A stretch of DNA of 64,000 nt from an uncultured Gammaproteobacteria bacterium (GTDB taxonomy: Bacteria; Patescibacteriota; Patescibacteriia; UBA9570; XYC2-FULL-38-9), in NCBI GenBank assembly GCA_964344485.1, contig CAYFNF010000002.1, forward strand, positions 176,273-240,272, read 5' to 3'. Below are positions 36,623 to 60,155 of the stretch, piece after piece (position 1 is the first letter of the stretch; each line of letters starts with the position of its first letter). Below the pieces are notes generated by a model. The model saw only the letters and a list, made by a program, of their open reading frames with translations, searched no databases and was not told the DNA's origin. The position numbers and the translations under genes are program-made.

Positions 36623-37245
36623 GATAATAGACGTTTAGATACTTCGTTATAAATAGTATTTGCATTTTCCTGCTTCGGTCCTTCTGAAGATACCTGTACC
36701 CAGGTGTCTTGTGATGTTGCGTATTCCTGAAAAAACGCACGTACTTTCCTATGAAATGCAAGCTCTTCTCTGTCCATCCGATTGAGCTCTTCCTCTTTCT
36801 TTCTTGCAATACCAACTTCAGGATCGATGTCTAAGTAGACCACAACATCAGGCTCCAGGCCATTGCGTGCATATTCATCCATAGTGAAAATAATATCCGC
36901 ATTCTCTAACTCTCGTCCACCAATTTGATACGCATATGTGGACCCAGAAAACCGATCACAAATCACTGTTTTCCCTTCTTCTAATGCTGGTATAATTACT
37001 TGCTCGATATGTTGCGACCGGTCGGCAAGAAAAAGAAATAATTCGGTCCGCGGATGCACTGCCTCATGATTCTCATGAAGAATCACATTACGAATCAGCT
37101 CTCCAACGCGTGTACCGCCTGGCTCATGCGTGATAATCACTTCCTGCCCTTCGTCCTGCAAGCGTTCAGCTAATAGATCAGAATGCTTAGTCTTTCCGCT
37201 GCCTTCACCGCCTTCAAATACAATAAAATGTCCCTTGTTACTCAT
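36619..37245 (-). CDS. tmk: Thymidylate kinase
   Basis: P-loop FEGGEGSGKT and a dTMP-kinase DRF-like block (CDRFSGS). Confidence 0.9.
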   Translation of the reverse strand: MSNKGHFIVFEGGEGSGKTKHSDLLAERLQDEGQEVIITHEPGGTRVGELIRNVILHENHEAVHPRTELFLFLADRSQHIEQVIIPALEEGKTVICDRFSGSTYAYQIGGRELENADIIFTMDEYARNGLEPDVVVYLDIDPEVGIARKKEEELNRMDREELAFHRKVRAFFQEYATSQDTWVQVSSEGPKQENANTIYNEVSKRLLS

Positions 37246-38686
37246 GCTTCTTAATGTCCTTTAATGGTAGTGGCCGATCTTGAGTATACTCTATTCCAAG
37301 TGTTAACGCAATCTCTGCTTTTTGTAGTTCAGCACCTAAATCACATGCATGAGAGAAGACAGAGACGCCCTGATCTCTAACAATGGTATTCATGAGCTCT
37401 ACTGCTGTTGTTCCAGTATAACGATCGAGCTTTTTTCCGCTCGGACTTAAATGCAACACCTCAATCTCGTGTTCCGGGATAATGCGAATCACGTAATTAC
37501 CGCGCGGATCTTGTTCGCACGGAAGTGATGGATAGAATCGAGAAATAATTTCTTGTGCTCGTTGATAGCTCTCTTCATAGATATGTGCTGATCCTGAAAT
37601 TGTAATTAAGTGCCCCATCTCCTTATCCAACGCATCTGCTATCTCTTTTTGCATAGTACGCAGAGCTAATGCATTTTCTGGCCACGCACGGAACATATCA
37701 TTTGACCGAAAGTACGCTGTAAGGAAAAGTAAATCATCCTTGATACATGCATGAACTAAGTTCAAACACGGTGGATGAGATGAGTCATTGTCGAGTTGTA
37801 CATTCCATAACATACCAATACCGCGGCGGGAGAATGGTTCTTTTTGTAATTTCGCAATAATCTTCTGAACTTGATTGATGCCATCTGCATTTCGTAGTCG
37901 CTTTCCATAGGTGTAACTTAAAGAGGGCTCTTCTTTTGCGGTCATTATTTGCGATTTGTATTTTTCGAAGTGTTCTTTTGTAAATGGAAAATACTCAGCG
38001 AAATCGATGTTCGTTGGGCACTCTTGAGTGATAATTGCTGCAATGTTGAGCAACTCACGCTGAGTTCCGCTCGTATGATGTGATTGCTTCTCTTCTCCGA
38101 ATCTCATAATAGTATGCAACAACTTCGGCCACACCTCAGCAACTGTTTTTCCACGATAGGTAAATAACGTTCCTTCAGATGGGTATCGATTGGTTTCAAT
38201 ATCTATCTCAGGATAAATCTGAGCCTCAGCCCATGGATGGGTGTCTTGAGTGCATTTATCAATAGCCTTCTGAACGTTCTTTGCGTCTAGTTCTTCTCGC
38301 ATATCAATAATCTCAATCTGCTGTCGCATATGGTCTAAATCTTTCTTTGGAATCTCCTTATCAATAACCACCTCTTCCTTGCCTATGACTTCTCGTCGCT
38401 CGTTGATTCCGTTTGCAAAGAACTGCACGAGTGCTTCTGCGGATTGGATCTTGTCCTGGCCACAGATAATAATTGTCCGGATAGTCGGATTTGCTAGAGT
38501 ATTGCGAATCAACGGGTTTATTCCTGTATTAGAATAGAGCTGCCCGATCACTTTAAATGACTGTTCGTCAAGTTTTGAAGCAAACACTTCGCGCGGAGTC
38601 CATAATGTCGCAATTCCAATACTCGACTGCTCGCTTCCAAGCACTAGATTCTCCTTATAGTAGATTGGCCATCCCGCAGTGTCCAT
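37238..38686 (-). CDS. Thymidylate-synthase-fold enzyme (ThyA/dCMP-hydroxymethylase family) with a ~170-aa N-terminal and ~80-aa C-terminal extension
   Basis: The core aligns with ThyA: HTSGTQRE (DRTGTGT), SRRGIGMLWN (SRRIIVSAWN), PPCL…FRSNDMFRAWPEN (PCH…YQRSCD…LGLPFN) and GSAHIY (GDTHLY). At 482 aa it is about twice the length of ThyA. Confidence 0.65.
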   Translation of the reverse strand: MDTAGWPIYYKENLVLGSEQSSIGIATLWTPREVFASKLDEQSFKVIGQLYSNTGINPLIRNTLANPTIRTIIICGQDKIQSAEALVQFFANGINERREVIGKEEVVIDKEIPKKDLDHMRQQIEIIDMREELDAKNVQKAIDKCTQDTHPWAEAQIYPEIDIETNRYPSEGTLFTYRGKTVAEVWPKLLHTIMRFGEEKQSHHTSGTQRELLNIAAIITQECPTNIDFAEYFPFTKEHFEKYKSQIMTAKEEPSLSYTYGKRLRNADGINQVQKIIAKLQKEPFSRRGIGMLWNVQLDNDSSHPPCLNLVHACIKDDLLFLTAYFRSNDMFRAWPENALALRTMQKEIADALDKEMGHLITISGSAHIYEESYQRAQEIISRFYPSLPCEQDPRGNYVIRIIPEHEIEVLHLSPSGKKLDRYTGTTAVELMNTIVRDQGVSVFSHACDLGAELQKAEIALTLGIEYTQDRPLPLKDIKKHE

Positions 38687-48735: not shown

Positions 48736-49777
48736 GGAATCTTATATCGTTCTGTAAAAACATGCGGATATCTGGAATGTGATGTTTTAGCATTGTGAGT
48801 CGGTCGTAACCCATGCCAAATGCAAATCCGGTGTATTTCCCAGGCTCATACCCTGCTGCTTCTAGTACTCGCGGATGAATCATTCCTGAGCCTCCGATCT
48901 CAATCCATCCGGTTTTCTTGCAGATCGGACACCCTTTTTGATTGCAGAACACACAGGAGATGTCTGGCTCGTAACTCGGCTCTGTAAAAGGAAAGTATCC
49001 TGGGCGTAATCGCACCTTCACATCCTCATGAAAAAACTGCTTGAACGTTTCCCTCATGGTCCATACTAGCTGACCGACAGAAACGTCTGTATCCACTACA
49101 AACGCTTCTAATTGATGAAATGTATGTTCATGGGACGCGTCAGTGGCTTCATTGCGGAACGACCGGCCTGGAATCACGCAGCGGAGTGGTGGTTCATACT
49201 GCTCCATGACTCTCACCTGCATATTAGAGGTATGCGTTCTCATGACCCAGTCATCATGCTCAAACTTACGATCGTTTTTTCTCTCAATTGCAGATTTGAT
49301 GAAGAATGTATCCTGTATGTCTCTGGCTGGATGCCCTGGAGGAAAATTCAACGCTTCAAAGTTGTAAAAGTCGTTATCCAGCTCCGGTCCTTCAAACACC
49401 ATGTAACCCATAGAACGGAAAATCTCAACCAATTCATTTCGTGTTTGAGTCAATGGATGCAGATGCCCGGTATGAACTGGAATTCCTGGCAATGTAATAT
49501 CTGATTGTGGAGCTTGTGATTCTGATGCATCTGAAGTAATGGATGCACGCACTTCTTCAAGTGCTTCTTGCATGTGCTCACGCAATTCGTTTGCTTTTGG
49601 ACCGATTTCACGCTTTGCTTCGTCTGACAGTGTTTTTAACGACTTCAGAACCATGGTGAGCTTCCCATTTTTCCTACCTAAAAACTGTACGCGTAACTGC
49701 TCGAGTTCTTCGCTATTTCGTATCTCTTTAATAGCGTCTTGAAAATCCTTTTTTACTTGGTCTATCTCTTTTTTCAT
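48722..49777 (-). CDS. pheS: Phenylalanyl-tRNA synthetase alpha subunit
   Basis: Class II core motifs (…FRNE…, GFAFGMGYDRL). Confidence 0.95.
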   Translation of the reverse strand: MKKEIDQVKKDFQDAIKEIRNSEELEQLRVQFLGRKNGKLTMVLKSLKTLSDEAKREIGPKANELREHMQEALEEVRASITSDASESQAPQSDITLPGIPVHTGHLHPLTQTRNELVEIFRSMGYMVFEGPELDNDFYNFEALNFPPGHPARDIQDTFFIKSAIERKNDRKFEHDDWVMRTHTSNMQVRVMEQYEPPLRCVIPGRSFRNEATDASHEHTFHQLEAFVVDTDVSVGQLVWTMRETFKQFFHEDVKVRLRPGYFPFTEPSYEPDISCVFCNQKGCPICKKTGWIEIGGSGMIHPRVLEAAGYEPGKYTGFAFGMGYDRLTMLKHHIPDIRMFLQNDIRFLEQF

Positions 49778-50190
49778 TTTGACTTATTTAGCTTTCTTCG
49801 CTTCTGAATTCGAGATTCAATCGAGCGTGCGAGAAAAAAACCTTCTAATATGGTCAATCCTGCAACTAAGAACAACGCCATCCACCATATCAGTAACGAT
49901 TGGCTCACCAGGAATAGTGTTAAACAGATCAGAATAGCAAACCATAGTGCTTGTCGCAGAGAGATTCCAATATGTCGAAATGGTACAGTATTGCGCTTAA
50001 AAAGCAACCGAATGAAGAAACCAAGTAAACTGATAGAGCCCCAGAGTGCAAAAAATAGCGCGATAAAAAACAGTCCGAGCCCGATCACCCCTCCGTCACT
50101 AGGATCAATACGAAACAGTACTACTGCAAAACACCCCCAGCAGATGATAGTGGTGAATGCCATTGTTATTAAATACCTCCGTAATGTCAT
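49774..50190 (-). CDS. Small hypothetical 4-TM membrane protein, translationally coupled to pheS
   Basis: 138-aa ORF with an ATGA overlap onto the pheS start. Confidence 0.45.
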   Translation of the reverse strand: MTLRRYLITMAFTTIICWGCFAVVLFRIDPSDGGVIGLGLFFIALFFALWGSISLLGFFIRLLFKRNTVPFRHIGISLRQALWFAILICLTLFLVSQSLLIWWMALFLVAGLTILEGFFLARSIESRIQKRRKLNKSK

Positions 50191-50322: not shown

Positions 50323-51573
50323 TCAGTCCTCCACCTCCGGGAGGTCCGGCATCCAGCCTTCTGCTTGGCACTGCCCGAACTCGAACGGGATGCCCGTGTC
50401 CAGGCACTGGAGCTCGCCCATGCAGTGACGGTCGTACATGCAGGGCTGCCCGCGCGCGACCTTGCCGTGCACCCCGTGGCGATCGTAGAAGTCCTTCTCG
50501 AACGCCGGGGTCTGGTGGTACCGATGCTGGTTCCACCGGATCCAGAGCTCGTGGTCTCGACCGACCGGTGGGGCCTTGAGCCACTTGCGGTACGGCTGAC
50601 CCGGGACGTGCTCCGTCAGGTAGCGAGCGAGCTGCTCGCCGCTGTCCACCGCGTACTCCACGTACTCGTCGCCGTCGGCGTCGAGCACCAGTACAGGTGG
50701 CGGTGGCAGCTCCGTGTCCTCGGTGAGCACCAGGATCTCGTCCTCGGGCGCGACGTAGAAGTAACCGGAGTAGAAGAAGTCACCTCGTTCCACGGTGTAC
50801 GGCGGACCGAAGCCCTTGTTGAACTGCCGTAGTGCCTTCTTCTTGCCCGGGCTTCTCGCCGGACCGTCCAGGACCAGGTCGTCCCCGATCCGGACGCCGC
50901 GGAGCACCTGGGGCTTGGGCATGGTCTGCACGCGCCGCAGGTCCTCGGTCCGGACCTCGAGGTCGTTCGAGATGTCGGTCAGGTACTCGGAGCCCCACGG
51001 CTGTCCGTCGAAGACCCACAGGTCGGTGCCGAGTTCGCGCGGGATCCATGCGTTCGAGACCGGGTCGGCCTCCACGGGCTGCGGGAAGACATTCTCGGGC
51101 GGGGAGCCCAGCACCAGTTCCTCGGGCGGCACGTACGGGACGCGCATGTGAGTGCCCGGGATGGTGAGTCCACCACAGCTTGCGGGTCGACGGTCGTCGA
51201 GCTCCCGGACCACGTGACCGAACCGGTTGACCAGGTAGCCCGGGACCGGATCGTTGTCCGGACCAGCGTCGTGGAAGCACGGGTGGTGGTGCTCGTGGTG
51301 ATCCTGCTGCCAGACGCAGTGGCCCCACTCGATGCGGATCGAGCGGCCTTCGGGCAGGGTCTCGAGGCAGTAGCCCGAGCGGCACTGGCTGTCCACCTGA
51401 CACTGTGCTCCGATGGCCAGGTTGTGGGTGGTGCCGATCGCCGCGTCCCGGGTGTAGCCCTCGTACCGGTAGCCGTCCCAGGACCGTTCGCGGATGTGCA
51501 CGGACATCGAAGCCGCGCATCCACAGATGCAGAGCATCAACGCAACGCTCGCGAGTGCGTAAGTCTTACGCAT
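50323..51573 (-). CDS. Compositionally foreign (about 66% GC) secreted protein. Signal peptide, two terminal 4-Cys knots, a His-rich patch and an acidic Pro-rich core. No family recognised.
   Basis: The ATG at 51573 is preceded by GGAGGTGGAGGAGGA with a 6-nt spacer. The N-terminus MRKTYALASVALMLCICGCAAS is signal-peptide-like. Cys patterns are QC-x5-C-x4-C-x15-C near the N-terminus and PC-x5-C-x5-C-x11-C at the C-terminus. It also has HHEHHH and PPPPVLVLDADGDEY segments. The track's 434-aa version begins at an upstream non-ATG codon. Confidence 0.7.
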   Translation of the reverse strand: MRKTYALASVALMLCICGCAASMSVHIRERSWDGYRYEGYTRDAAIGTTHNLAIGAQCQVDSQCRSGYCLETLPEGRSIRIEWGHCVWQQDHHEHHHPCFHDAGPDNDPVPGYLVNRFGHVVRELDDRRPASCGGLTIPGTHMRVPYVPPEELVLGSPPENVFPQPVEADPVSNAWIPRELGTDLWVFDGQPWGSEYLTDISNDLEVRTEDLRRVQTMPKPQVLRGVRIGDDLVLDGPARSPGKKKALRQFNKGFGPPYTVERGDFFYSGYFYVAPEDEILVLTEDTELPPPPVLVLDADGDEYVEYAVDSGEQLARYLTEHVPGQPYRKWLKAPPVGRDHELWIRWNQHRYHQTPAFEKDFYDRHGVHGKVARGQPCMYDRHCMGELQCLDTGIPFEFGQCQAEGWMPDLPEVED

Positions 51574-51777
51574 GTCGCTTCCTCCTCCACCTCCGAAAAG
51601 CTCGAAGGTGTTCGTGTCGAAGTACAATCGATTCTTGCTACAGCAAAAGCACCCAAAGAGTGAACCTCTGCAGTAACAAGAATCTACATTAAAATACCGG
51701 CCTCTTTAGAGCTAAAGAGACACTATAAAATAGCAGTATTTTCCGTTTTTGTCAAACCGTATGAGCAAGACTATTCA

Positions 51778-54744
51778 CTACGAGCGAAACTCGCAGATAT
51801 CCCGATAATCACAGTATTTACAGTGAAATCCGGGTGTTGGCGTAAAATCCGCTGTATGTATGGCAGCTCCTAACTGCTCTATCCATTCTATTACTTGCGC
51901 TGTATCTTTTTCAGTCACATCCACACTCAACGGCTTGTTCTCTTCTACGTAATAATATGTCAGCGCACTTGGTAGCTCACCGAGGATGTCTTGAAGTGCG
52001 AGCGCATAGATATAGAGCTGTTCTGCGTCTTTCTTTCCTTTCTTTGGGTACTGACCAGTTTTGTAATCCAGAATCTCAATACCGCTTTCTGTTTTATCTA
52101 CTCGGTCTATTGCTCCTTTTATAGAGTAATCACCAACTGGAATAGTAAACCCCTTTTCCAGCATCTGTACGTCCGGCCAATTCTCTTCATGGATCTTGTA
52201 AAACTCTTTTAACGCTTGCTTCCCTTTTGTGCGGTACTCCTGTTTCTGCTTCTTAGAGTAGTACCAGTCGTCTATCCATTTTGATTCGTATATCTCTAAC
52301 AGTTCTTCGACAGATGGGATTGAACCTTTTTTTGTCCCGCTTTTTTTCTCTGATTCATCAAACAATCCAGCTTGCGTAGTATCGCTCCCCTCTTTTATGC
52401 GTCTAAAAAATTCAAATAAGGTGTTATGAATAGTCTTACCGAATGAAAAACTTGGCTTACCAGGGCACGGAACTTGTAGTACAAATGCGAATCGATACTG
52501 CCACGGGCAGGTTTCATACGCTTTCAGTTGCGTGAAGCTCAATGTCTTAGGAATGTACTCACTCTCTTGTTTGCTGAATTCTTTTGGAGTATCAGATGAG
52601 GCAAATACCACCTCCCCAGTTGGTGCTGGCTTAGTGTCTACAAAACCGGATTCCACTAGAAACCTGGATGGCTTCTTTTTCCTAGCACCGCCGTAATCTT
52701 CGCCACTCGTTAAGTAGAGCCCTTTCTTTGCACGTGTCATTGCTACATAGAACAGTCGCCGCTCTTCTTGTAAGTGCCAATCTCCTTCAGGAAGCACATC
52801 TTTTACGATCTCATCAGGAATCGGAATAGCTTCCTTACGACTTATAGATGGAAATCGTTTGTCTACTAAATTCACTACAAATACATAATCAAATTCCAAA
52901 CCCTTCGCTGCATGTACGGTCATAATCTTTACGGACTCCGGACCTTGATCAAAATCTGGTTGCAACCGTCCTTCATCACCTGCGTCGATCATTAAAGACA
53001 GTTCGTGAATGAATTCGATAGTGGATGTGTCCGAATGCGCGCGTTCAAACGCTTCGATATACTTATAAAACTGATTGATATAGAGTATCTGCTCAGTAGC
53101 AGCAGCGGTTTCTTTCCCAGTAAGCTGCTTCAAATACCCTGACTGATCTAAGAAATCTAATACCACTTCTCCAACACTTTTGGTCTTGGCTTTCTCAGTG
53201 AGAGCATCTACTAAGTGTAGGATACTATCGATGGTCGCATGGGTGTTCTTTTGCAGCTGCTTGACCGCGCGTATCGATCTGCACGTTTCAAATAGTGATT
53301 CAGTTTTTTTGTGTGCGTGCTGCACAATACGAATCACATCTTCATGCGGAATCTTCCAGATATCATACGTTAATACTCGATACATTGCTCGAGACTCATG
53401 GTAGTTGTCCAGTAGTTTTAGGAATGCAATCACATCCATGATCACTGGCTTGGCGAACAATCCTTGTGAAGCCAAGAACTGATACGGAATTCCAGCGCGA
53501 TCTAGGTATGGAATAAATGTCTTTGCTTGATCGTTTGCACGTACCAGAACAGCAAAATCATTCCACGACGCTTTCTTATCTTTCTTCTTTATATCAATAA
53601 TCGTATCTAGCACCATCTTGGCTTCTCCTTCTAGCGATTGCGAATGCAAGTGCTTGATTTCAGCTTTTCCCGTGACTGTACTGTTCAGTTGTTTATTGAT
53701 GTGTAACTTCTTTTCTAGACGATTTGGATTATTATTCTGTATGAATGTATATGAGAGGTCTAGAATATTCTGCGATGAACGATAGTTCTTTATTAGTGAC
53801 ACCTCCTCAGCATCCGCGTAATCATCTTTGAAGATAAGGATATTACTCATAGCTGCACCACGGAAACTGTAAATTGATTGATCGTCATCTGCAACCACTG
53901 TTAAGTTATTACGGGGTGCTGCCAGCATCTTTACTAATTCATACTGCGCATAGTTCGTATCTTGAAACTCATCGACAAGAATGTACTTAAACTGTTTGCG
54001 ATACTGTTCTAGAATGCCTGGTCGCTGCTTGAATAAATGAATTGGTTCGGTGATAAGATCGCCAAAATCAAGTGCATTCTGTGCACGCAGTAATTGCTCG
54101 TACTTCTTATATGCATGAGCAACTTCTAGCGTTCTCTGCGCTTCATCTATTTGTGCTTTCTCTTCATCACTCAGCCCTTTCTTTTTCTTTTTGAATTCGG
54201 AATCAGTATCGAGCTGAAGCTTCTCTGCATACTCCAGGTACTCTTCTGGGGTGATATCCTCATCTTTGAGTCGCGAAAAATGAGAGACTAACGCTTGAAC
54301 AAATTTGGTTGGATTTCCTTTTGGTCGATAGTAATCAAGATCGAATTCATCAATATGCTCTCGCAGTAACAACCACTGCTCAGTATCCGAAAGGAGCTTG
54401 AAATCATTCGACAGCCCAATGTGGAGCGCATGGTCGCGTAGTACTCTGTCACCAAATGCGTGAAACGTTGAGATCCATAGATCAAAAAAGCCCATGGGTA
54501 ACAAGGACTGTACTCGCTCTTCCATCTCCCCTGCTGCTTTATCTGTAAACGTGAGCGCTAGGATTTCGTCTGAAGATGCATGCTCCTGCTCAATAAGATG
54601 TGCGATTCGTCTGGTAATCACTGTGGTCTTTCCTGTACCAGCACCAGCGATAATCAACAATGGCCCGTCTTTCTTAGTAACCGCCTTTTGTTGCTCTATA
54701 TTTAAACCTTCGGTACTTGCTGTTGCCATACCGTCATCATACAC
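51778..54744 (-). CDS. UvrD/PcrA/AddA-family helicase fused to a C-terminal Cas4/AddB-type PD-(D/E)xK nuclease with a predicted 4Fe-4S cluster
   Basis: Walker A AGAGTGKT and UvrD motifs (TFH, DEFQDTN). The C-terminal 250 aa carry …CPWQYRF…, DRVDK…ILDYKTG and C-x2-C-x5-C (HCKYCDYRDIC). Confidence 0.85.
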   Translation of the reverse strand: MYDDGMATASTEGLNIEQQKAVTKKDGPLLIIAGAGTGKTTVITRRIAHLIEQEHASSDEILALTFTDKAAGEMEERVQSLLPMGFFDLWISTFHAFGDRVLRDHALHIGLSNDFKLLSDTEQWLLLREHIDEFDLDYYRPKGNPTKFVQALVSHFSRLKDEDITPEEYLEYAEKLQLDTDSEFKKKKKGLSDEEKAQIDEAQRTLEVAHAYKKYEQLLRAQNALDFGDLITEPIHLFKQRPGILEQYRKQFKYILVDEFQDTNYAQYELVKMLAAPRNNLTVVADDDQSIYSFRGAAMSNILIFKDDYADAEEVSLIKNYRSSQNILDLSYTFIQNNNPNRLEKKLHINKQLNSTVTGKAEIKHLHSQSLEGEAKMVLDTIIDIKKKDKKASWNDFAVLVRANDQAKTFIPYLDRAGIPYQFLASQGLFAKPVIMDVIAFLKLLDNYHESRAMYRVLTYDIWKIPHEDVIRIVQHAHKKTESLFETCRSIRAVKQLQKNTHATIDSILHLVDALTEKAKTKSVGEVVLDFLDQSGYLKQLTGKETAAATEQILYINQFYKYIEAFERAHSDTSTIEFIHELSLMIDAGDEGRLQPDFDQGPESVKIMTVHAAKGLEFDYVFVVNLVDKRFPSISRKEAIPIPDEIVKDVLPEGDWHLQEERRLFYVAMTRAKKGLYLTSGEDYGGARKKKPSRFLVESGFVDTKPAPTGEVVFASSDTPKEFSKQESEYIPKTLSFTQLKAYETCPWQYRFAFVLQVPCPGKPSFSFGKTIHNTLFEFFRRIKEGSDTTQAGLFDESEKKSGTKKGSIPSVEELLEIYESKWIDDWYYSKKQKQEYRTKGKQALKEFYKIHEENWPDVQMLEKGFTIPVGDYSIKGAIDRVDKTESGIEILDYKTGQYPKKGKKDAEQLYIYALALQDILGELPSALTYYYVEENKPLSVDVTEKDTAQVIEWIEQLGAAIHTADFTPTPGFHCKYCDYRDICEFRS

Positions 54745-54768: not shown

Positions 54769-57597
54769 TTATCGGACTCCTGGAGCTGGCCCAGAACCGA
54801 CTTTAATAAACTTTCCTAATGCGCTCTTTGCTGCTGAACCTGGAGAGACTTTTCCGTAGTCCGGATCGTCTGCAATGATATGTCCGTATCGCCGTAGCAT
54901 GCGTACTCCTTTATCAATGTCCCTATTCACTGCAGCAAATTCATCAGTACCTGTTAGACCCTGGCGCATCATCTCGTCACGTACTTCACGCAATGACGCG
55001 AGTAACTGAATATCTTGATGAGCATCTTGAATACGACCAGTCGCTTCTTCTATCGGAATTCCGAAGTTACGAGCGATGATCTCTTCGTGTTCAGGACCGA
55101 GTAAATCAACTGCATCATCTATTGGTACTCGTCCATGATACTCTATCTTTATTCTACCACCTCGTTCTGTAAAGGAAGCCATCACATTATCACTAGTGAA
55201 TGTTCCGCTGTCCTCTAACGCTGCACGCGCTTCTGCGATCTCTGCTGGGTCAAGTTCCACGTCAATATCTAATGCATCACGTTGTGCTTGAGCTGCGAGT
55301 TCAGCGGCTTGTACTGCTTCTTGCCTCTCTGCGAACCGCTCTATATCACCGGCGACTTGCTCTCCAGCAAATTCCCGGACTCGCTCAGCGCGGGGTATAG
55401 ACGGGTCATAATCCGGCAAGTAATCACTTTCTCGCGGAAGCGGCACTTCGTCTGGATGCACACCTTCATCTCCCCACCCAGCTATACCTTTCTTTGCATG
55501 ATACTCAGGAATATCTAACGCACGGTTTAACGCTTCACCGGGTGCTTTGATAATGTCTGCTGGAGTTGGGAGATCTCTGGTTGGCATGCGTCGTGCTCTG
55601 CGTATTGCTCGATCTGCTTCATCTTCAAAAAACCCAGTAGCTTGCGGGCCGGTATCCGTAGCAGGAACTTCAGTGCCATCTACTACAACAGCATCTGGGC
55701 CCCCGTCTAATCCGGTTACGTCAATAACACCGCCTTCCGCATGCATTTGATCTAGCATATCAGCTGACAGCGTGCTAGCGTGCGGAGGCTCTGGAAGCTC
55801 CACTGCATGTGGCGGCTCTCCAGGTGGGCCTTCTTGGAATAGGACTTCTGTTGCACCAGATGGACCGCCGCTCATTTCAATTCGCAATTTTCGTATATTT
55901 CCTTGAGCGTAGTACGCGGCATCCATTTCACCAGAACGAAGAGCAGTGGTTTCAATTCTCTGTGCTTCATCTAGCTCAGCTTGCATTTCATCTACTGTCA
56001 CTGTGCCGTCACGATACCCTGCTATCAATTGATCGCATCGTTCGGTTTGTGCAGCAGCAATTCCACGTAGCTCATCTAAATATGTATCATGCATATCACT
56101 CATTAGTTCTTGCGGTGTTGTTCCTGAATACTCTGTAACTCGCCCATCAGAGTCTATGACTGACATAAAGAGTGAATTCCCGTCTGACCGAAACTCTACT
56201 TGTTCTGTTATACCTAATCCATGTGGAAAGTCTTCGGATGAAGAGGTAATGAATGACGCGTAGCGCTGATCTCCGATCATTAAATAGCCATCATCTGATA
56301 TATCCATTCCCATCTCTCTCATCTGGGCAGCTGCATCGCTAGTAATATTAAAATCCACCCCATTGATCGTCTCTTGTTGAGTAAAGACTGCTTCGCGACG
56401 AATATCTGGTGCGTTTCTATCAACAGTACGCGGTTCATCCTCAGGTTGAACTGGTACATCATCAGGGAGGTCATCTCCACCTGTCTCACCTAGATCCGGA
56501 TCGTGCACCTCACCTGGGTCTACTTGCGCGACACCATCGAGCTCTGCATCATCCTCTAAAAAAGCTGCAGCTGAGCTATCCGGCAAGTCTTCTGGTGGAA
56601 GTGGAGTATTCATGACTGTCTCACCACCATCAACCAACGGCTCATCCACTGCAATGTCTGCTGGAAGGTGCGGAGTTCCTTCGACTGGAGTTACTGCTGG
56701 GCCGGCGACTCCAGCATCAAGTTCAGGTTCTGGAACAGGCACATCAGGCTCAAGCTCACCAAGCATAGTATCGCCACCAGGGAGCTCATCAACGTCCATG
56801 GCTACTGCCTCTCCATCACCTACTGCGACGTGTCTTATTTCAATATCACCATGGTCTCCAAGTTCAGCTGCTGCGTCCGCTTGAGAACGGAGTAATTGCC
56901 CTCCAACTGATCTAACTTCTTTTCCGTACGTGGCTGCAGGTGATGCAACATCATCAGTCAATGCCTCAGCAGCTTGCGCTTCTCCGATAAATAGTTTTCC
57001 AGCTGTACCAACAACTCCACGAACCATCTCAGCGTATAGACCAGACCCGAATGCTGCACCGACAGTGGTTGCCCATAAACGCAATCGCTCATCCTCACGT
57101 GCTGCTTGTTCTCGTACTACCACAATACGATCAGATTCTGCTTGTAGTAAGTCCGCTAACGCATCGCTCATTTCATCAGCGCGTTCAGCTTGCTGCTCTG
57201 GTAGCTGTTCATTCAAGTGATGGATCCGCTCTTCTCGCAACTGAATCATGAGTGGATTATCTCCCATTTGCTGTCCATTCAACTCTCCCCATGCAAGCAG
57301 AGTGTCCATATGCTCCTCTACTTCATCTGGGGTAAGATTCTCTACGCCTTTAGCTTTCGCAATAGCTTTCTCTACACCACTTATACGTTTTTTTGAACGC
57401 TTCTCATACGACGCCATGCCCATGGTGCCGCCAGTCATCAATCTTCGTCCCAAGTACAGCCCACCAAGCACGCCAGCGCCTGCGCCCGTTAATGCAGCAA
57501 CTGTCACTCCAGCAAGCACTCCTTTCTTAATTAAATTCTGTACAGTAAATTGATTTGCAATAACTTTGCCAATTTTTCCTTTTGGCTGCCACTTCAA
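54769..57597 (-). CDS. Large acidic membrane-anchored hypothetical protein (first of a five-gene cluster)
   Basis: 942 aa with an N-terminal TM helix (VLAGVTVAALTGAGAGVLGGLYL) and D/E/P/A/G-rich low complexity. The C-terminal ~250 aa are paralogous to 59088..60155 and end …VGSGPAPGVR. Apparent TTG start overlapping the upstream stop (TTGA). Confidence 0.6.
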   Translation of the reverse strand: MKWQPKGKIGKVIANQFTVQNLIKKGVLAGVTVAALTGAGAGVLGGLYLGRRLMTGGTMGMASYEKRSKKRISGVEKAIAKAKGVENLTPDEVEEHMDTLLAWGELNGQQMGDNPLMIQLREERIHHLNEQLPEQQAERADEMSDALADLLQAESDRIVVVREQAAREDERLRLWATTVGAAFGSGLYAEMVRGVVGTAGKLFIGEAQAAEALTDDVASPAATYGKEVRSVGGQLLRSQADAAAELGDHGDIEIRHVAVGDGEAVAMDVDELPGGDTMLGELEPDVPVPEPELDAGVAGPAVTPVEGTPHLPADIAVDEPLVDGGETVMNTPLPPEDLPDSSAAAFLEDDAELDGVAQVDPGEVHDPDLGETGGDDLPDDVPVQPEDEPRTVDRNAPDIRREAVFTQQETINGVDFNITSDAAAQMREMGMDISDDGYLMIGDQRYASFITSSSEDFPHGLGITEQVEFRSDGNSLFMSVIDSDGRVTEYSGTTPQELMSDMHDTYLDELRGIAAAQTERCDQLIAGYRDGTVTVDEMQAELDEAQRIETTALRSGEMDAAYYAQGNIRKLRIEMSGGPSGATEVLFQEGPPGEPPHAVELPEPPHASTLSADMLDQMHAEGGVIDVTGLDGGPDAVVVDGTEVPATDTGPQATGFFEDEADRAIRRARRMPTRDLPTPADIIKAPGEALNRALDIPEYHAKKGIAGWGDEGVHPDEVPLPRESDYLPDYDPSIPRAERVREFAGEQVAGDIERFAERQEAVQAAELAAQAQRDALDIDVELDPAEIAEARAALEDSGTFTSDNVMASFTERGGRIKIEYHGRVPIDDAVDLLGPEHEEIIARNFGIPIEEATGRIQDAHQDIQLLASLREVRDEMMRQGLTGTDEFAAVNRDIDKGVRMLRRYGHIIADDPDYGKVSPGSAAKSALGKFIKVGSGPAPGVR

Positions 57598-58397
57598 TAC
57601 ATATGGGCCAAATTTACTCCACCTAAATCTTTATACAGTTGATATATAGGCGCAGCGTCTGCAAACTGCTCTTGTGCGCGAGCATCAGCAAGTGCGATCT
57701 GTTCATGGACCGCTGCATCCACGCTATCTGCCATGAGTTCTGCGCGAGCTTCATCGTACTGCTCTTCTGCTTCAAATCGATCTACCATCGCAGCGTATTT
57801 GTCTTCAGCTCCTTTACCGCGCAGCATTCGGCCCAAATCTTGTTTAAAGAATCCTCGAATACCTTTACTTCGTTTCTCGGTAGTATCTGCTTGAGCTAAG
57901 CGCTGTCGTGCTTCATGGAGCTCTACTGCACGACCACCCTCTTCTGCGCCCCGATGTTCATCTAATAGCATTTGATATCGCTCTTGTGCTTCAGCGAGCT
58001 CATCTTTCACTTGCTCATGCTGCCACTTCTTTTCACGAGAAAAAAGTGCAGAGACACGTAGCTTTCTTCGTTCCGCTTCTTTTTGTGCAATTAATCGCTT
58101 TGCTGCGTCTATCTGTAAAACTAAACTTTGCTCGGCTGATAATGAGTGTGTATACACGGTCTCTATGGTTTGTTGCTCCGGAGGCTCCACTGCAACATCT
58201 GCTGCTGTGGCTTCTGCTATGACGTCTGCGCCCTCTCCGCGCACCTCTTCACCCATATCATGAGCACGACCCACCATCTCATCAGCAGCGTTGTCAACTA
58301 CTTCCAATGTTAACTCAGGACCATCCGGCTCCACCTCCGGTGGAACGTCGGGTTGTCGCTCTGCCTCCGCTTCTCGTCGTCGTGCGGGATCGCCCAT
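57594..58397 (-). CDS. Acidic coiled-coil hypothetical protein
   Basis: 267 aa, E/R/A-rich with predicted coiled coil, tightly linked in the cluster. Confidence 0.5.
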   Translation of the reverse strand: MGDPARRREAEAERQPDVPPEVEPDGPELTLEVVDNAADEMVGRAHDMGEEVRGEGADVIAEATAADVAVEPPEQQTIETVYTHSLSAEQSLVLQIDAAKRLIAQKEAERRKLRVSALFSREKKWQHEQVKDELAEAQERYQMLLDEHRGAEEGGRAVELHEARQRLAQADTTEKRSKGIRGFFKQDLGRMLRGKGAEDKYAAMVDRFEAEEQYDEARAELMADSVDAAVHEQIALADARAQEQFADAAPIYQLYKDLGGVNLAHMY

Positions 58398-58403
58398 ATG
58401 ATT

Positions 58404-58760
58404 TTAACTCGTCTGACTTAGTGTATTTTTTATCTCGTCAATTTTCTTCTGGTCTATTCTGGATCGAATATGTGAAATCACATCTTGTTGTTGTTTTTTC
58501 AGTTGCGTGATTTGTGCATGGAATTCGTTGAACGCATTTGTCATCTGCTCTAAACAGTCGCGCAAATCTTTCTGCTCTTGCTCTTTTTCGTTTGGTTGTT
58601 CAGCTGAAGGTGCCTGCGGTGGTGATTGCTGCTGGGGAGTCGCCTGAGGCTGCGCTGGTTGTGGTGGTACTCCTTGCTGAGCAGGTGCTTGAACAGTAGC
58701 GACCGGTTGCTGCGGCGCCTGTTGAACTGGTTGTGGTGGTACCCCTTGCTGGACAGTCAT
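58404..58760 (-). CDS. Gln/Pro-rich small hypothetical protein with a C-terminal coiled coil
   Basis: N-terminal QQGVPPQPxQQ repeats, then a helical segment. Confidence 0.45.
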   Translation of the reverse strand: MTVQQGVPPQPVQQAPQQPVATVQAPAQQGVPPQPAQPQATPQQQSPPQAPSAEQPNEKEQEQKDLRDCLEQMTNAFNEFHAQITQLKKQQQDVISHIRSRIDQKKIDEIKNTLSQTS

Positions 58761-58764
58761 AGTG

Positions 58765-59067
58765 TTATTTTTTTGCCGAGGTCATTAACTCTTGCTTCAT
58801 CTGTTGAATCTCCTCAAGGATAATCTCAGGTAAATTTGGAACATGTTGTAGCACTACTTTCATCTGCTCTTCTTCTCCTAATCCTTGCATCTGCTGTAGT
58901 GTCTGCTCGGTCTGCTGCTCTGGAATCGCTGCCATCACTCGCAACATCACACGCTTGTGAATGAGTTCATTCATTTGTTGAAGCATCTGAAGCTTTCGCT
59001 CTTCAGGTAGATTTGCTAAGCCAAGTTCGACAAATATATTTCCTTGAACATATGTAGTTGCAGACAT
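58765..59067 (-). CDS. Small Gln/Glu-rich helical hypothetical protein
   Basis: 100 aa, with a 4-nt gap to its neighbours. Confidence 0.45.
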   Translation of the reverse strand: MSATTYVQGNIFVELGLANLPEERKLQMLQQMNELIHKRVMLRVMAAIPEQQTEQTLQQMQGLGEEEQMKVVLQHVPNLPEIILEEIQQMKQELMTSAKK

Positions 59068-59087
59068 ATGAAAATATTACTTATGAA

Positions 59088-60155
59088 TTATCTTGGTGCT
59101 GGGCCAGACCCAGTTTGAATAAGTGCTTTGGCTTTTTGCGCATCAGACTGCTCGCCGTATCGCGGATCATCAAATATCACGTGGCCTGCACGTCGAGTGA
59201 TCTGCTGTAGTAGTCGCTCGGCTTCAGCCACAACTGCTTCGTACTCCTTTGTGTCGTGTAGTCCTTGGGCCAACATTGCATCACGGACTTGTAAGAGAAA
59301 TGCCAACTGTCCGCACTGTAACTCTACTTGTGCAATCAGCGTGCTGAGCTCCCCACGACCTAAGCCAGTAGTTCGAGCCATTACTTGTTCATAATTGTTC
59401 GGTCCTTCTGTTACTAACAATCTACTTCTTCCAAGCTCTACTGCTCGAGCAAGTGAATCGTCTGATTCATAGTCTCCTAACCATTCAGTGATGCGTGCTT
59501 TTTTCTTTCCGACTTTAAAAGCTAATCCGTGCTCTCCAACTGTAAATGTTCCAGACGTTGCTAGTTGATCATGTGCTGCTTGAACCGCTGCTGCGTCTAA
59601 GCCTGCAGGTGGTTGCAACGCTGCTTCTTGTGCTGCTAATGCAGTGCGTGCAGCGAGCAACTCTTCTTGCTGCTCTGTGAGCTCTGCTGCTTGCTCTGCT
59701 CCGCGCTCTGCACGATGTTCTATGCGACGGTCTTCGAGAGGTACTCCTGGCTCAACATCAGGCAATGTGTCACGAGGCTCTGGTACTGGTACATCCTCTG
59801 GACCCATACCCTGGTCCGTCATACTAGCTACTCCTTTATGTGCTTGATACTCTGCTTGATCCAATCCTCGATTCACTGCATCATCCGCAGCACGGATTCC
59901 TCCAGCTACTGCCTCTCCCACGTCTTGAAGCGACCCTGGATGCTCTGCTCGTTTCACGCGTTTTTTTGCCTGATCGACAAAAAGACCAGTTGCGCGTCGT
60001 ACGTCATCTTCTAGCATTTCGCCTGATTCTACGCCTCTGGCAGCAGTTCCGTCACGAGGCTCCTCAGCGAATGCAGGGCTAGAAGTTGCTGCAGCAAGAG
60101 TTGCTGCTAGCCCTATTCTTCGTAATGGATGCATTCTTCCACGCCGTCTAGCCAT
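59088..60155 (-). CDS. Secreted hypothetical protein, paralog of the C-terminal module of 54769..57597
   Basis: N-terminal signal peptide (MARRRGRMHPLRRIGLAATLAAATSSPAFA). Shared blocks include NRGLDQAEYQAHKGV (~NRALDIPEYHAKKGI), ATSGTFTVGEHGLAFKVGKKKARITEW (~EDSGTFTSDNVMASFTERGGRIKIEY), and VRDAMLAQGL…RRAGHVIFDDPRYGE…GSGPAPR (~VRDEMMRQGL…RRYGHIIADDPDYGK…GSGPAPGVR). Confidence 0.6.
   Translation of the reverse strand: MARRRGRMHPLRRIGLAATLAAATSSPAFAEEPRDGTAARGVESGEMLEDDVRRATGLFVDQAKKRVKRAEHPGSLQDVGEAVAGGIRAADDAVNRGLDQAEYQAHKGVASMTDQGMGPEDVPVPEPRDTLPDVEPGVPLEDRRIEHRAERGAEQAAELTEQQEELLAARTALAAQEAALQPPAGLDAAAVQAAHDQLATSGTFTVGEHGLAFKVGKKKARITEWLGDYESDDSLARAVELGRSRLLVTEGPNNYEQVMARTTGLGRGELSTLIAQVELQCGQLAFLLQVRDAMLAQGLHDTKEYEAVVAEAERLLQQITRRAGHVIFDDPRYGEQSDAQKAKALIQTGSGPAPR

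What the first reader, a model, noticed from the sequence alone, without database searches (positions are those of the whole stretch)
54769..60155. Five-gene minus-strand operon of acidic low-complexity/coiled-coil proteins with an internally duplicated secreted module (…GSGPAPxR C-terminus), at elevated GC
Operon structure: five ORFs with 0-24 nt gaps or overlaps lie in one orientation, directly upstream of (and probably co-transcribed with) the UvrD-nuclease fusion gene. The gene sizes are 942, 267, 118, 100 and 355 aa.

Seen in sequence:
- The 942-aa protein has one N-terminal TM helix.
- The 355-aa protein has a cleavable signal peptide.
- Its last ~290 aa align block-for-block with the last ~250 aa of the 942-aa protein. 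Shared motifs are NR[AG]LD.[PA]EY[HQ]A[KH]KG, GTFT…(basic)…I[KT]EW/IEY, VRD[EA]M[ML].QGL and RR.GH[IV]I.DDP.YG…GSGPAP.R.
- The middle genes are a long acidic coiled-coil protein, a QQGVPPQP-repeat protein and a small Q/E-rich helical protein.
- Local GC is about 53-57% versus about 42% in the housekeeping genes.

None of these proteins matches a family I can name. A membrane-anchored giant protein, a secreted paralog and coiled-coil accessories together resemble a cell-surface, adhesion or appendage module of the kind found in episymbiotic small-genome bacteria. It could equally be a mobile or phage-derived block.
Basis: partly seen in the sequence, partly recalled or inferred. Interest (0 to 1): 0.65.

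Follow-up and report, generated by a model that had tools for sequence, protein, structure and literature searches.

The report
Uncharacterised CPR envelope-protein gene cluster, one gene split
This is a chromosomal gene cluster, found only in a small group of ultra-small (CPR/Patescibacteria) bacteria, that encodes a fast-evolving ~1,200-aa membrane protein (broken into two ORFs here), two small helical partner proteins and an extra secreted copy of its tail domain; its function is unknown, and it is neither foreign nor phage DNA.

Summary
The five ORFs and the paralogy are real (BLASTP E=2e-35), but three parts of the description need correcting.

1. The 267-aa and 942-aa ORFs are two halves of one ~1,200-aa gene. 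It is a single ORF in every relative recovered. In the window a 1-nt frame change creates the overlapping TGA stop and TTG start.
2. GC is 41-51%, not 53-57%. The excess comes from codon positions 1 and 2, i.e. Ala/Glu/Asp/Gly-rich proteins. GC3 is normal to low, and orthologs show the same pattern, so this is not a foreign island.
3. The 100-aa protein belongs to Pfam DUF5663.

The conserved core is DUF5663, a small coiled-coil protein and the large protein, directly upstream of the UvrD-nuclease gene. It sits in the same housekeeping gene order in at least five relatives, one labelled Candidatus Kerfeldbacteria. The 355-aa signal-peptide paralog is specific to the window's lineage.

The large-protein family is very rare: 11 true members among 1.84 billion cluster representatives. 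It has no match in Pfam, NCBIfam, PHROGs, PADLOC, PDB, phages or plasmids. A confident AlphaFold model of the C-terminal module has no Foldseek match.

Best reading: an envelope-spanning protein with a cytoplasmic helical scaffold, a variable stalk and an exposed tip module. Function is inferred, not shown.

The parts
59088..60155 (-). 355-aa lineage-specific paralog of the C-terminal module, carrying its own signal-peptide-like N-terminus (residues 1-29, nt 60069-60155)
   Evidence: ORF. 36% identity, E=2e-35 to residues 652-939 of the 942-aa protein. Signal heuristics. Absent from the same slot in L112, L126 and L125. The arrangement is reproduced in independent ENA contigs at 99.9-100% DNA identity.
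58765..59067 (-). 100-aa DUF5663 protein (small, helical, no hydrophobic segment); first gene of the conserved core
   Evidence: PF18908, E=1.9e-7, 32 bits against GA 23.7, covering profile positions 1-83 of 84. Orthologs at 44-53% identity in L001, L112, L124-L126 and P0007.
58404..58760 (-). 118-aa protein: a window-specific ~55-aa Gln/Pro-rich N-terminal extension plus the conserved ~60-aa coiled-coil core (AFNEFH...QQDV..HI...IDQKKI)
   Evidence: 49% identity, E=7e-21 to the 66-aa ortholog in L001. Orthologs are 66-72 aa in L001, L112 and L125.
57594..58397 (-). 267-aa ORF: the N-terminal acidic, all-helical (inferred cytoplasmic) part of the large protein
   Evidence: 31% identity, E=9e-28 to residues 19-268 of the single long ORF in L001. 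Aligns to the N-termini of P0009-P0017. AF2 predicts an all-helical region, pLDDT 70-89 for residues 70-260.
57594..57597 (-). Split point of the large gene: TGA stop of the 267-aa ORF overlapping the TTG start of the 942-aa ORF, which is in the -1 frame
   Evidence: Sequence ...CAT ATG TAT TGA / TTG AAG TGG. Homology to the single-ORF relatives runs up to the stop in one frame and resumes at (L)KWQP in the other. One extra nucleotide, e.g. TAT TTG AAG, would restore a single ORF.
54769..57597 (-). 942-aa ORF: the remainder of the large protein. Hydrophobic segment 1 (aa 26-49, nt 57451-57522); helical region; hydrophobic segment 2 (aa 174-192, nt 57022-57078); variable acidic/Pro-rich region (aa ~215-650, nt 55648-56955); conserved C-terminal module (aa 652-942, nt 54772-55644)
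   Evidence: AF2 model of the C-module: pLDDT 77, pTM 0.65, residues 85-275 at pLDDT 85-96.
51778..54744 (-). UvrD helicase / PD-(D/E)XK nuclease fusion gene; a conserved downstream neighbour (context, not shown to be functionally linked)
   Evidence: Pfam UvrD-helicase, UvrD_C and PDDEXK_1. Lies 4-24 nt after the large gene in the window, L112, L123, L125 and L126.

Best explanation
This is a vertically inherited, lineage-restricted envelope gene cluster of a Kerfeldbacteria-like CPR bacterium. Its centrepiece is one ~1,200-aa membrane protein, here split into 267-aa and 942-aa ORFs.

Proposed layout: an N-terminal ~270-450-aa acidic helical-bundle / coiled-coil region stays in the cytoplasm, next to Gly/Ala-rich membrane-inserting segments. 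A length-variable (139-511 aa), acidic, Pro-rich stalk follows, and the conserved ~290-aa C-terminal module lies outside the membrane. That module is a long helix, a three-stranded beta-meander and a helical bundle, ending in the invariant DDPxY motif. The two small soluble helical proteins encoded just upstream (DUF5663 and the 66-118-aa coiled-coil protein) most likely bind the cytoplasmic part.

The complex would link the cytoplasm to an exposed, rapidly diverging tip. Such a tip would suit a structural or binding role at the cell surface (contact with wall, partner or host) better than catalysis. The window's lineage has additionally duplicated the tip module as a free secreted protein.

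Shown here: the family, its architecture, the conserved gene order, the split, native codon composition, and the absence of any known homolog.
Inferred: topology, interaction between the three core proteins, and any surface or binding function.
For: Single-gene ancestry:
- L001, L112/L126, L123 and L124/L125 each carry one ORF, as do P0009, P0010, P0011, P0013 and P0014 at 1,133-1,288 aa, against 267+942=1,209 aa.

Conserved order:
- CBS, CitMHS, [slot], DUF5663, small coil, large protein, UvrD-nuclease, [slot], 138-aa membrane protein, PheS.

Native composition:
- GC3 z from +0.2 to -2.2, with the same GC1-driven excess in orthologs.

C-terminus outside the membrane:
- the free paralog has a signal peptide;
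- segment 2 has more Lys+Arg upstream than downstream in 8 of 8 members;
- the Kerfeldbacteria member keeps only segment 2 as a hydrophobic segment (KD 1.57 against 0.61 for segment 1).

Surface-like evolution:
- the variable region is 139-511 aa long at ~20% identity, against 29-31% for the N-terminal region and C-module;
- the large protein is 25-35% identical where UvrD, CitMHS and PheS are 57-73% identical;
- some members carry extra internal copies of the helical sub-unit.

Non-enzymatic tip:
- invariant residues are mostly Gly, Leu, Met, Pro and Phe plus the DDPxY motif, and the motif His is Arg in P0009 and P0011.

Background: most CPR-enriched families are poorly annotated membrane or extracellular proteins (PMC6744442, read).
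Against: - No homology or fold match ties any of the proteins to a known surface, adhesion or appendage system.
- Topology rests on heuristics. Most members have two hydrophobic segments. If both span the membrane, the N-terminus and the C-module lie on the same side. In the window's own protein, segment 2 is only weakly hydrophobic (KD 0.99).
- The AF2 model of the N-terminal region is weak (pLDDT 60, pTM 0.41).
- There is no cell-wall sorting signal.
- The alignments behind the models hold only 8-10 sequences.
- All relatives recovered share gene order across the whole neighbourhood, so the gene-order conservation may reflect relatedness, not a functional link.
Confidence: 0.45

Rival explanations
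1. A cytoplasmic, membrane-associated scaffold (in the manner of BAR, EzrA or PspA proteins). Both Gly/Ala-rich segments span or dip into the membrane as a hairpin, so both the N-terminal helical bundle and the C-module face the cytoplasm. The complex would then shape or monitor the membrane, or take part in division, and would not be surface-exposed.
For: - Most members have two hydrophobic segments ~140 aa apart.
- Both flanks of segment 1 are basic.
- The best, though non-significant, fold hits for the N-terminal model are BAR/F-BAR long-helix bundles (E 0.08-0.5), plus a weak syndapin profile hit (E 0.35).
- DUF5663 and the small coil protein have no signal peptide or TM segment.
Against: - The free paralog of the C-module has a signal-peptide-like N-terminus.
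- The Lys+Arg bias at segment 2 points to N-in/C-out in 8 of 8 members.
- The Kerfeldbacteria member has only one hydrophobic segment.
- TM-scores of 0.14-0.16 and rmsd above 24 A mean the BAR similarity is just generic long helices.
- No PspA/Vipp1/ESCRT-III entry is among the 50 best matches listed, and Pfam gives no such hit at E<=1.
Confidence: 0.2
2. An accessory of the downstream UvrD-nuclease. The membrane protein and its two small partners would tether or regulate the helicase-nuclease at the membrane, for example for processing of incoming DNA, or for repair or defence.
For: - The large gene ends 4-24 nt before the UvrD/PD-(D/E)XK gene in the window, L112, L123, L125 and L126.
- The UvrD protein matches GajB-type helicase models in PADLOC.
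Against: - All these genomes share gene order across the whole neighbourhood from CBS to PheS, so adjacency may be inherited.
- The GajB hits are generic UvrD-superfamily matches, and no GajA or other defence partner is present.
- None of the five proteins hits PADLOC.
- UvrD is conserved at 59-67% identity while the large protein diverges to ~25-35%, which is unlike tightly co-evolving partners.
Confidence: 0.1
3. A mobile, phage-derived or horizontally acquired block (for example, a tape-measure-like protein with accessory genes), as the first reader offered as an alternative.
For: - Modestly raised GC.
- A long helical protein with Gly/Ala-rich hydrophobic segments superficially resembles a phage tape-measure protein (my own recollection, not tested as membership).
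- Variable gene slots lie on both sides of the cluster.
Against: - GC3 is native, and the GC excess comes from amino-acid composition and is shared by orthologs.
- The cluster holds a fixed chromosomal position in at least five relatives.
- No PHROGs hit at E<0.03 for the large proteins.
- No IMG/VR pattern hit, no INPHARED or PLSDB tblastn hit, and no BFVD fold hit.
- No integrase, tRNA or repeat boundaries.
Confidence: 0.03
4. In this particular genome the large gene is a pseudogene in early decay, or the split is a sequencing or assembly error. The 'operon of five proteins' would then be partly an artefact.
For: - Only the window has the frame change; every relative recovered has one ORF.
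- The lesion is a single-nucleotide event next to a short T run.
- The nearest Shine-Dalgarno-like GGAG lies ~20 nt upstream of the TTG start, which is poorly placed (my reading).
Against: - Both halves remain fully open (267 and 942 codons) with no second lesion.
- The stop and start overlap (TTGA), which is compatible with translational coupling, so two functional polypeptides are possible.
- The ENA contigs do not cover the junction, so an error cannot be checked.
Confidence: 0.5

Closest known systems
Pfam DUF5663 (PF18908)
   Same: The 100-aa protein matches the full-length profile above the gathering score. Its orthologs in the related loci also carry the precomputed PF18908 label.
   Different: The family is uncharacterised. 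No paper in the searchable library mentions it, so membership says nothing about function. The other four ORFs are not covered by any Pfam or NCBIfam model.
[quoted passage not shown] 2019, PMC6744442)
   Same: CPR-restricted and membrane-associated, with no functional annotation and a proposed role in cell-cell interaction.
   Different: Those 106 families are widespread across CPR. This one is very rare, with 11 true members among 1.84 billion cluster representatives, and was found only in a few loci that share the same gene order. Whether it is one of the published families was not checked.
Gram-positive surface proteins with a coiled-coil or Pro-rich stalk (e.g. sortase-anchored LPXTG adhesins)
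   Same: Acidic, Pro-rich, length-variable region; repeated sub-units in some members; rapid divergence; a conserved terminal module.
   Different: There is no LPXTG motif or C-terminal anchor. Anchoring would instead be through N-proximal membrane segments, with a large cytoplasmic domain. There is no sequence or fold similarity.
BAR/F-BAR and other long-helix membrane scaffolds; PspA/IM30/Vipp1
   Same: The N-terminal ~270 aa is predicted as a bundle of long helices next to membrane segments. BAR/F-BAR domains are the top Foldseek hits.
   Different: Those hits are not significant (E>=0.08, TM~0.15). PspA/Vipp1 does not appear in the listed Foldseek matches, in Pfam or in the PDB profile search.

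Membership tests
Pfam DUF5663 (PF18908), 100-aa protein | Whole-protein HMM score at or above the gathering threshold, with near full-length profile coverage | tested here: met
   32.0 bits against GA 23.7, E=1.9e-7, profile positions 1-83 of 84.
PspA / IM30 / Vipp1 (ESCRT-III-like), 267-aa ORF and N-terminal domain | Match to the PspA_IM30 profile, or an ESCRT-III-like helical hairpin fold | tested here: not met
   No Pfam or NCBIfam hit at E<=1. No PDB profile hit. No PspA/Vipp1/ESCRT-III entry among the 50 best Foldseek matches listed. The model is only moderate (pLDDT 60).
S-layer / SLH-anchored proteins | SLH or another S-layer domain detectable by profile | tested here: not met
   No such Pfam or NCBIfam hit in the five proteins or in eight family members.
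Flagellar or type IV pilus components | Profile match above the curated cut-off to any flagellar or pilus family | tested here: not met
   Only noise for the low-complexity 118-aa protein: FlhF 13.5 bits against cut-off 174, MotD 10.1 against 283, FlgM 10.2 against 40.8.
Phage tape-measure protein / prophage block | PHROG or phage homology, with neighbouring phage structural genes | tested here: not met
   - No meaningful PHROGs hit.
- No phage, plasmid or IMG/VR match.
- No BFVD fold match.
- The neighbours are CitMHS, UvrD and PheS.
Sortase-anchored LPXTG surface proteins | C-terminal LPXTG motif followed by a hydrophobic segment and a basic tail | tested here: not met
   No [LIV]Px[TSA]G motif near any C-terminus in nine members. 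The only match, LPESG, is internal in P0015.
Gabija or other known defence systems (with the adjacent UvrD-nuclease) | A GajA-type partner, or any PADLOC model hit in the accessory genes | tested here: not met
   Zero PADLOC hits for the five proteins. Only the generic UvrD helicase matches GajB models.
Horizontally acquired genomic island | Deviant synonymous-site composition and absence from the same site in relatives | tested here: not met
   GC3 z from +0.2 to -2.2. The core cluster is present at the same site in at least five relatives. The 434-aa gene at 50323-51627, by contrast, does meet both criteria.
Sec-type secreted protein (355-aa paralog) | An n-, h- and c-region signal peptide with a signal-peptidase I site | tested here: inconclusive
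   Heuristic only: 6 Arg in the first 13 residues, an 11-aa h-region with KD 1.75, and AFA|EE. No SignalP or DeepTMHMM was available.

The most novel reading that the evidence does not exclude
The DUF5663 / small coil / large-protein trio is a previously undescribed envelope-spanning apparatus specific to a Kerfeldbacteria-like CPR clade. A cytoplasmic helical scaffold would be coupled through the membrane to a rapidly diversifying stalk. The stalk carries a tip module with a fold not represented in the PDB, used to attach to or sense a host cell. The window's lineage would have released a soluble copy of the tip as a secreted effector or decoy.
Probability: 0.2. Interest if true: 0.6.

Novelty: new variant of a known kind. 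Interest (0 to 1): 0.35.

Why it matters
If the surface reading is right, the family would be a candidate host- or partner-contact structure in a CPR lineage with no cultured members. Apart from type IV pili, almost nothing is known about how such cells attach. The confidently modelled C-terminal module had no Foldseek match in the PDB or BFVD, so it might turn out to be a new fold. In practical terms, the result corrects the annotation: one split gene instead of two, composition explained by amino-acid content, and no horizontal transfer. It also defines a small, clean family with conserved motifs (TGLF, R..DD..NR.LD, LPDYDP, VRDxM..GL..T.QF, GHVxxDDPxYG) that could be turned into a profile. 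As it stands, it is one of many uncharacterised CPR membrane-protein clusters. It is moderately interesting but not exceptional.

Tried and rejected
- Word-indexed protein searches with the 355-aa protein and with the full-family alignment returned only the query itself. Low-complexity words saturated the 8,000-candidate limit, so two of the three searches were effectively wasted.
Only 2 of 120 loci (L112, L123) were genuine, as shown by local tblastn. The taxonomic spread of the family is therefore under-sampled.
- The look-up of encoding contigs has no record of the window's 355-aa protein.
- PDB sequence-profile searches with the C-module, the N-terminal region and DUF5663 gave nothing below E=0.029.
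- Promoter and terminator scans were not above shuffled expectation, so they give no operon boundaries.
- There are no significant tandem repeats in the block. The QQGVPPQP 'repeat' is low-complexity protein sequence, not a DNA tandem array.
- I considered a programmed -1 frameshift at the A-AAT-TTG heptamer 12 nt upstream of the stop. It is unlikely, because homology to relatives continues in the zero frame right up to the stop codon.
- I considered a catalytic role for the GHVxxDDPxYG motif. It is unlikely, because the His is Arg in two members.

Full report
**1. What is in the sequence**

The five minus-strand ORFs exist exactly as listed:
- 355 aa, 59088-60155
- 100 aa, 58765-59067
- 118 aa, 58404-58760
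- 267 aa, 57594-58397
- 942 aa, 54769-57597

The gaps between them are 20, 4 and 6 nt, followed by a 4-nt coordinate overlap. A 988-aa UvrD-helicase / PD-(D/E)XK-nuclease gene follows 24 nt downstream.

The claimed paralogy is real.

The rest of the window is ordinary chromosomal housekeeping DNA: DnaE, CarB, PheS/PheT, GyrB, GlpK, GatB and ThrS. It contains no tRNA or Rfam hits.

**2. The composition claim is wrong in size and in meaning**

Per-gene GC is 0.41-0.51, and the highest 250-nt window is 0.54. It is not 53-57%.

Against 43 other genes of the window (GC 0.432 +/- 0.018), four of the five genes are raised (z +2.4 to +4.2). All of the excess sits in codon position 1 (0.60-0.74 against 0.537) and position 2. 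This reflects proteins rich in Ala, Glu, Asp, Gly and Val. GC3 is normal or low (0.32-0.41 against 0.399 +/- 0.035; z +0.2 to -2.2).

The orthologous large genes in L125 and L112 show the same offset from their own uvrD genes: 0.491 against 0.446, and 0.451 against 0.395. The feature is therefore inherited with the protein and does not indicate foreign origin.

**3. Five ORFs are really four genes**

A relative found through the DUF5663 protein (L001, GCA_005239655.1) has this order: DUF5663, a 66-aa coiled-coil gene, then one long ORF. The first ~270 residues of that long ORF match the window's 267-aa protein (31% identity, E=9e-28). The next ~220 residues match the start of the 942-aa protein (E=7e-18).

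An exhaustive HMMER search of 1.84 billion cluster representatives, using a profile of the two window paralogs, found only 13 hits. The last two are unrelated repeat proteins. The true members are mostly 1,133-1,288 aa long, against 267+942=1,209 aa.

The large gene is a single ORF in L112/L126, L123 and L124/L125.

In the window the sequence reads ...CAT ATG TAT TGA in one frame and TTG AAG TGG CAG... in the -1 frame. Homology to the relatives runs up to the stop in the first frame and resumes at (L)KWQP in the second. One extra nucleotide would restore a single ORF.

I cannot tell whether this is an assembly error, a recent mutation or a working split. Both halves are otherwise intact, and the overlapping stop and start would allow translational coupling.

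**4. Conserved core and lineage-specific additions**

Local tblastn of the window proteins against the fetched loci gives one common gene order: CBS-domain protein, CitMHS transporter, [slot 1], DUF5663, small coiled-coil protein, large protein, UvrD-nuclease, [slot 2], 138-aa membrane protein, PheS.

| Slot | Window | L112 / L126 | L124 / L125 |
|---|---|---|---|
| Slot 1 | 355-aa paralog | 143-aa gene (L112) | 160-aa and 491-aa genes |
| Slot 2 | GC-rich 434-aa gene | empty | two other small genes |

The 355-aa secreted paralog is therefore a derived feature of the window's lineage, as is the 55-aa Gln/Pro-rich extension of the 118-aa protein. Two independent ENA assemblies reproduce the 355 → DUF5663 → 118 arrangement at 99.9-100% DNA identity.

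One related locus is labelled Candidatus Kerfeldbacteria (L123). UvrD identities of 59-67% among all these loci put them in one moderately deep clade.

**5. Anatomy of the large protein**

The family alignment shows these regions in order:
- an acidic N-terminal region of about 270 aa;
- a conserved W(E/Q)P.S..GK junction;
- a Gly/Ala-rich hydrophobic segment 1, followed by RRLM and SYD.LRMRR..EK;
- about 120 aa of helix;
- a second Gly/Ala-rich hydrophobic segment;
- a region of 139-511 aa that is barely alignable (about 20% identity), acidic and Pro-rich;
- a conserved C-terminal module of about 290 aa (29-31% identity).

P0009, P0010 and P0011 carry extra partial copies of the module's helical sub-unit.

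AlphaFold2 with a 10-sequence alignment models the module well: pLDDT 77, pTM 0.65, and pLDDT 85-96 for residues 85-275. The model is a 40-residue helix, a short helix, a three-stranded beta-meander and a bundle of three helices ending in the invariant DDPxY loop.

The N-terminal 470 aa is predicted to be all-helical. Confidence is moderate for residues 70-260 and poor around the hydrophobic segments (pLDDT 60, pTM 0.41).

**6. Topology (inference)**

Three observations bear on topology:
- Segment 2 has more Lys+Arg upstream than downstream in 8 of 8 members. Segment 1 has basic flanks on both sides.
- The Kerfeldbacteria member has no hydrophobic segment 1 (KD 0.61) but keeps segment 2 (KD 1.57), followed by an AxA-like FAHA|QD.
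- The free 355-aa paralog begins with a signal-peptide-like sequence.

Together these favour a cytoplasmic N-terminus and an extracytoplasmic stalk and C-module. Either segment 1 only dips into the membrane, or one of the two segments is not a true TM helix in a given member.

A two-TM hairpin with both ends in the cytoplasm cannot be excluded without experiments. In the window's own protein, segment 2 is weak (KD 0.99).

**7. Comparison with known families**

Only the 100-aa protein belongs to a described family, DUF5663. That family is itself uncharacterised, and no searchable paper mentions it.

No significant match was found in any of the following:

| Resource searched |
|---|
| Pfam, for the five proteins and eight other family members |
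| NCBIfam |
| PHROGs |
| PADLOC |
| PDB sequences, using profiles |
| Foldseek against PDB, C-module (best E=0.68, TM <= 0.15) |
| Foldseek against BFVD |
| Foldseek against PDB, N-terminal model (best E=0.08) |
| IMG/VR |
| INPHARED phages |
| PLSDB plasmids |

The best hits for the N-terminal model are BAR/F-BAR, 14-3-3 and designed helical bundles with TM-scores around 0.15, and no PspA/Vipp1/ESCRT-III entry appears in the listing. There is no LPXTG sorting signal.

None of these was found.

**8. Most likely function**

I commit, at about 0.45, to this reading: an envelope-spanning protein whose cytoplasmic helical scaffold is bound by two small helical partners, and whose variable stalk presents a conserved, probably non-enzymatic tip module outside the cell.

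Three points support it:
- the topology argument in section 7 above;
- the surface-like evolutionary pattern (25-35% identity where neighbouring housekeeping genes are 57-73% identical);
- the mostly structural set of invariant residues, with the motif His replaced by Arg in two members.

This agrees with the general picture that CPR-enriched families are mostly unannotated membrane or extracellular proteins, possibly involved in cell-cell interaction (PMC6744442).

The main rival, at about 0.2, is a purely cytoplasmic membrane scaffold. A functional link to the UvrD-nuclease is possible (about 0.1), but shared gene order among related genomes explains the adjacency equally well. A phage or mobile origin is essentially excluded.

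**9. Verdict**

The cluster is a genuine, very rare and uncharacterised family, with a well-modelled C-terminal module that has no Foldseek match in the PDB or BFVD. However, there is no evidence of an unusual mechanism, and many such clusters exist in CPR genomes.

I rate interest at 0.35 and novelty as a new variant of a known kind, namely poorly annotated CPR envelope proteins.

Noticed in passing
window 50323-51627 (minus strand): A 434-aa Cys/His-rich ORF with GC 0.66 and GC3 0.86 (z=+13 against 43 window genes) lies between the UvrD-nuclease gene and the 138-aa membrane protein. That slot is empty in L112/L126 and holds other genes in L124/L125. The likely true start is an internal ATG giving a lipoprotein-like signal (MRKTYALASVALMLCICGC). 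The gene has its own promoter-like and terminator-like sites. It has no family match apart from a sub-threshold EB-module hit, and no plasmid match. It is either a recent transfer from a high-GC donor or an assembly chimera.
   Followed up: partly
window 50327-50339 and 51583-51595: A perfect 13-nt direct repeat, TCCTCCACCTCCG, sits at both edges of the GC-rich block, 1,256 nt apart. Only 3% of composition-matched shuffles contain any 13-nt exact repeat. It could mark the insertion or recombination junctions, or a chimeric join.
   Followed up: partly
window 58596-58760 (N-terminal ~55 codons of the 118-aa ORF): The Gln/Pro-rich extension (QQGVPPQP...) is present only in the window. The orthologs in L001, L112 and L125 are 66-72 aa long and begin just before the conserved AFNEFH coiled-coil core. 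It is not a DNA tandem repeat.
   Followed up: yes
window 49774-50190 (minus strand); L112 6711-7127; L125 18109-18564: A conserved 138-151-aa multi-pass membrane protein (66-70% identical across relatives) always lies between the uvrD region and pheS. It has no NCBIfam hit.
   Followed up: no
L112 (CAZMTW010000008.1): This contig is labelled 'uncultured Gammaproteobacteria', but it shares gene order and 57-73% protein identity with the window and with a Candidatus Kerfeldbacteria locus. The taxonomic label of that MAG contig is probably wrong.
   Followed up: partly
window 37238-38686 (minus strand): A 482-aa ORF combines an MtrA-like (tetrahydromethanopterin S-methyltransferase subunit A-like) N-terminal region with an archaeal-type thymidylate synthase domain. 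This is an unusual fusion for a bacterium.
   Followed up: no
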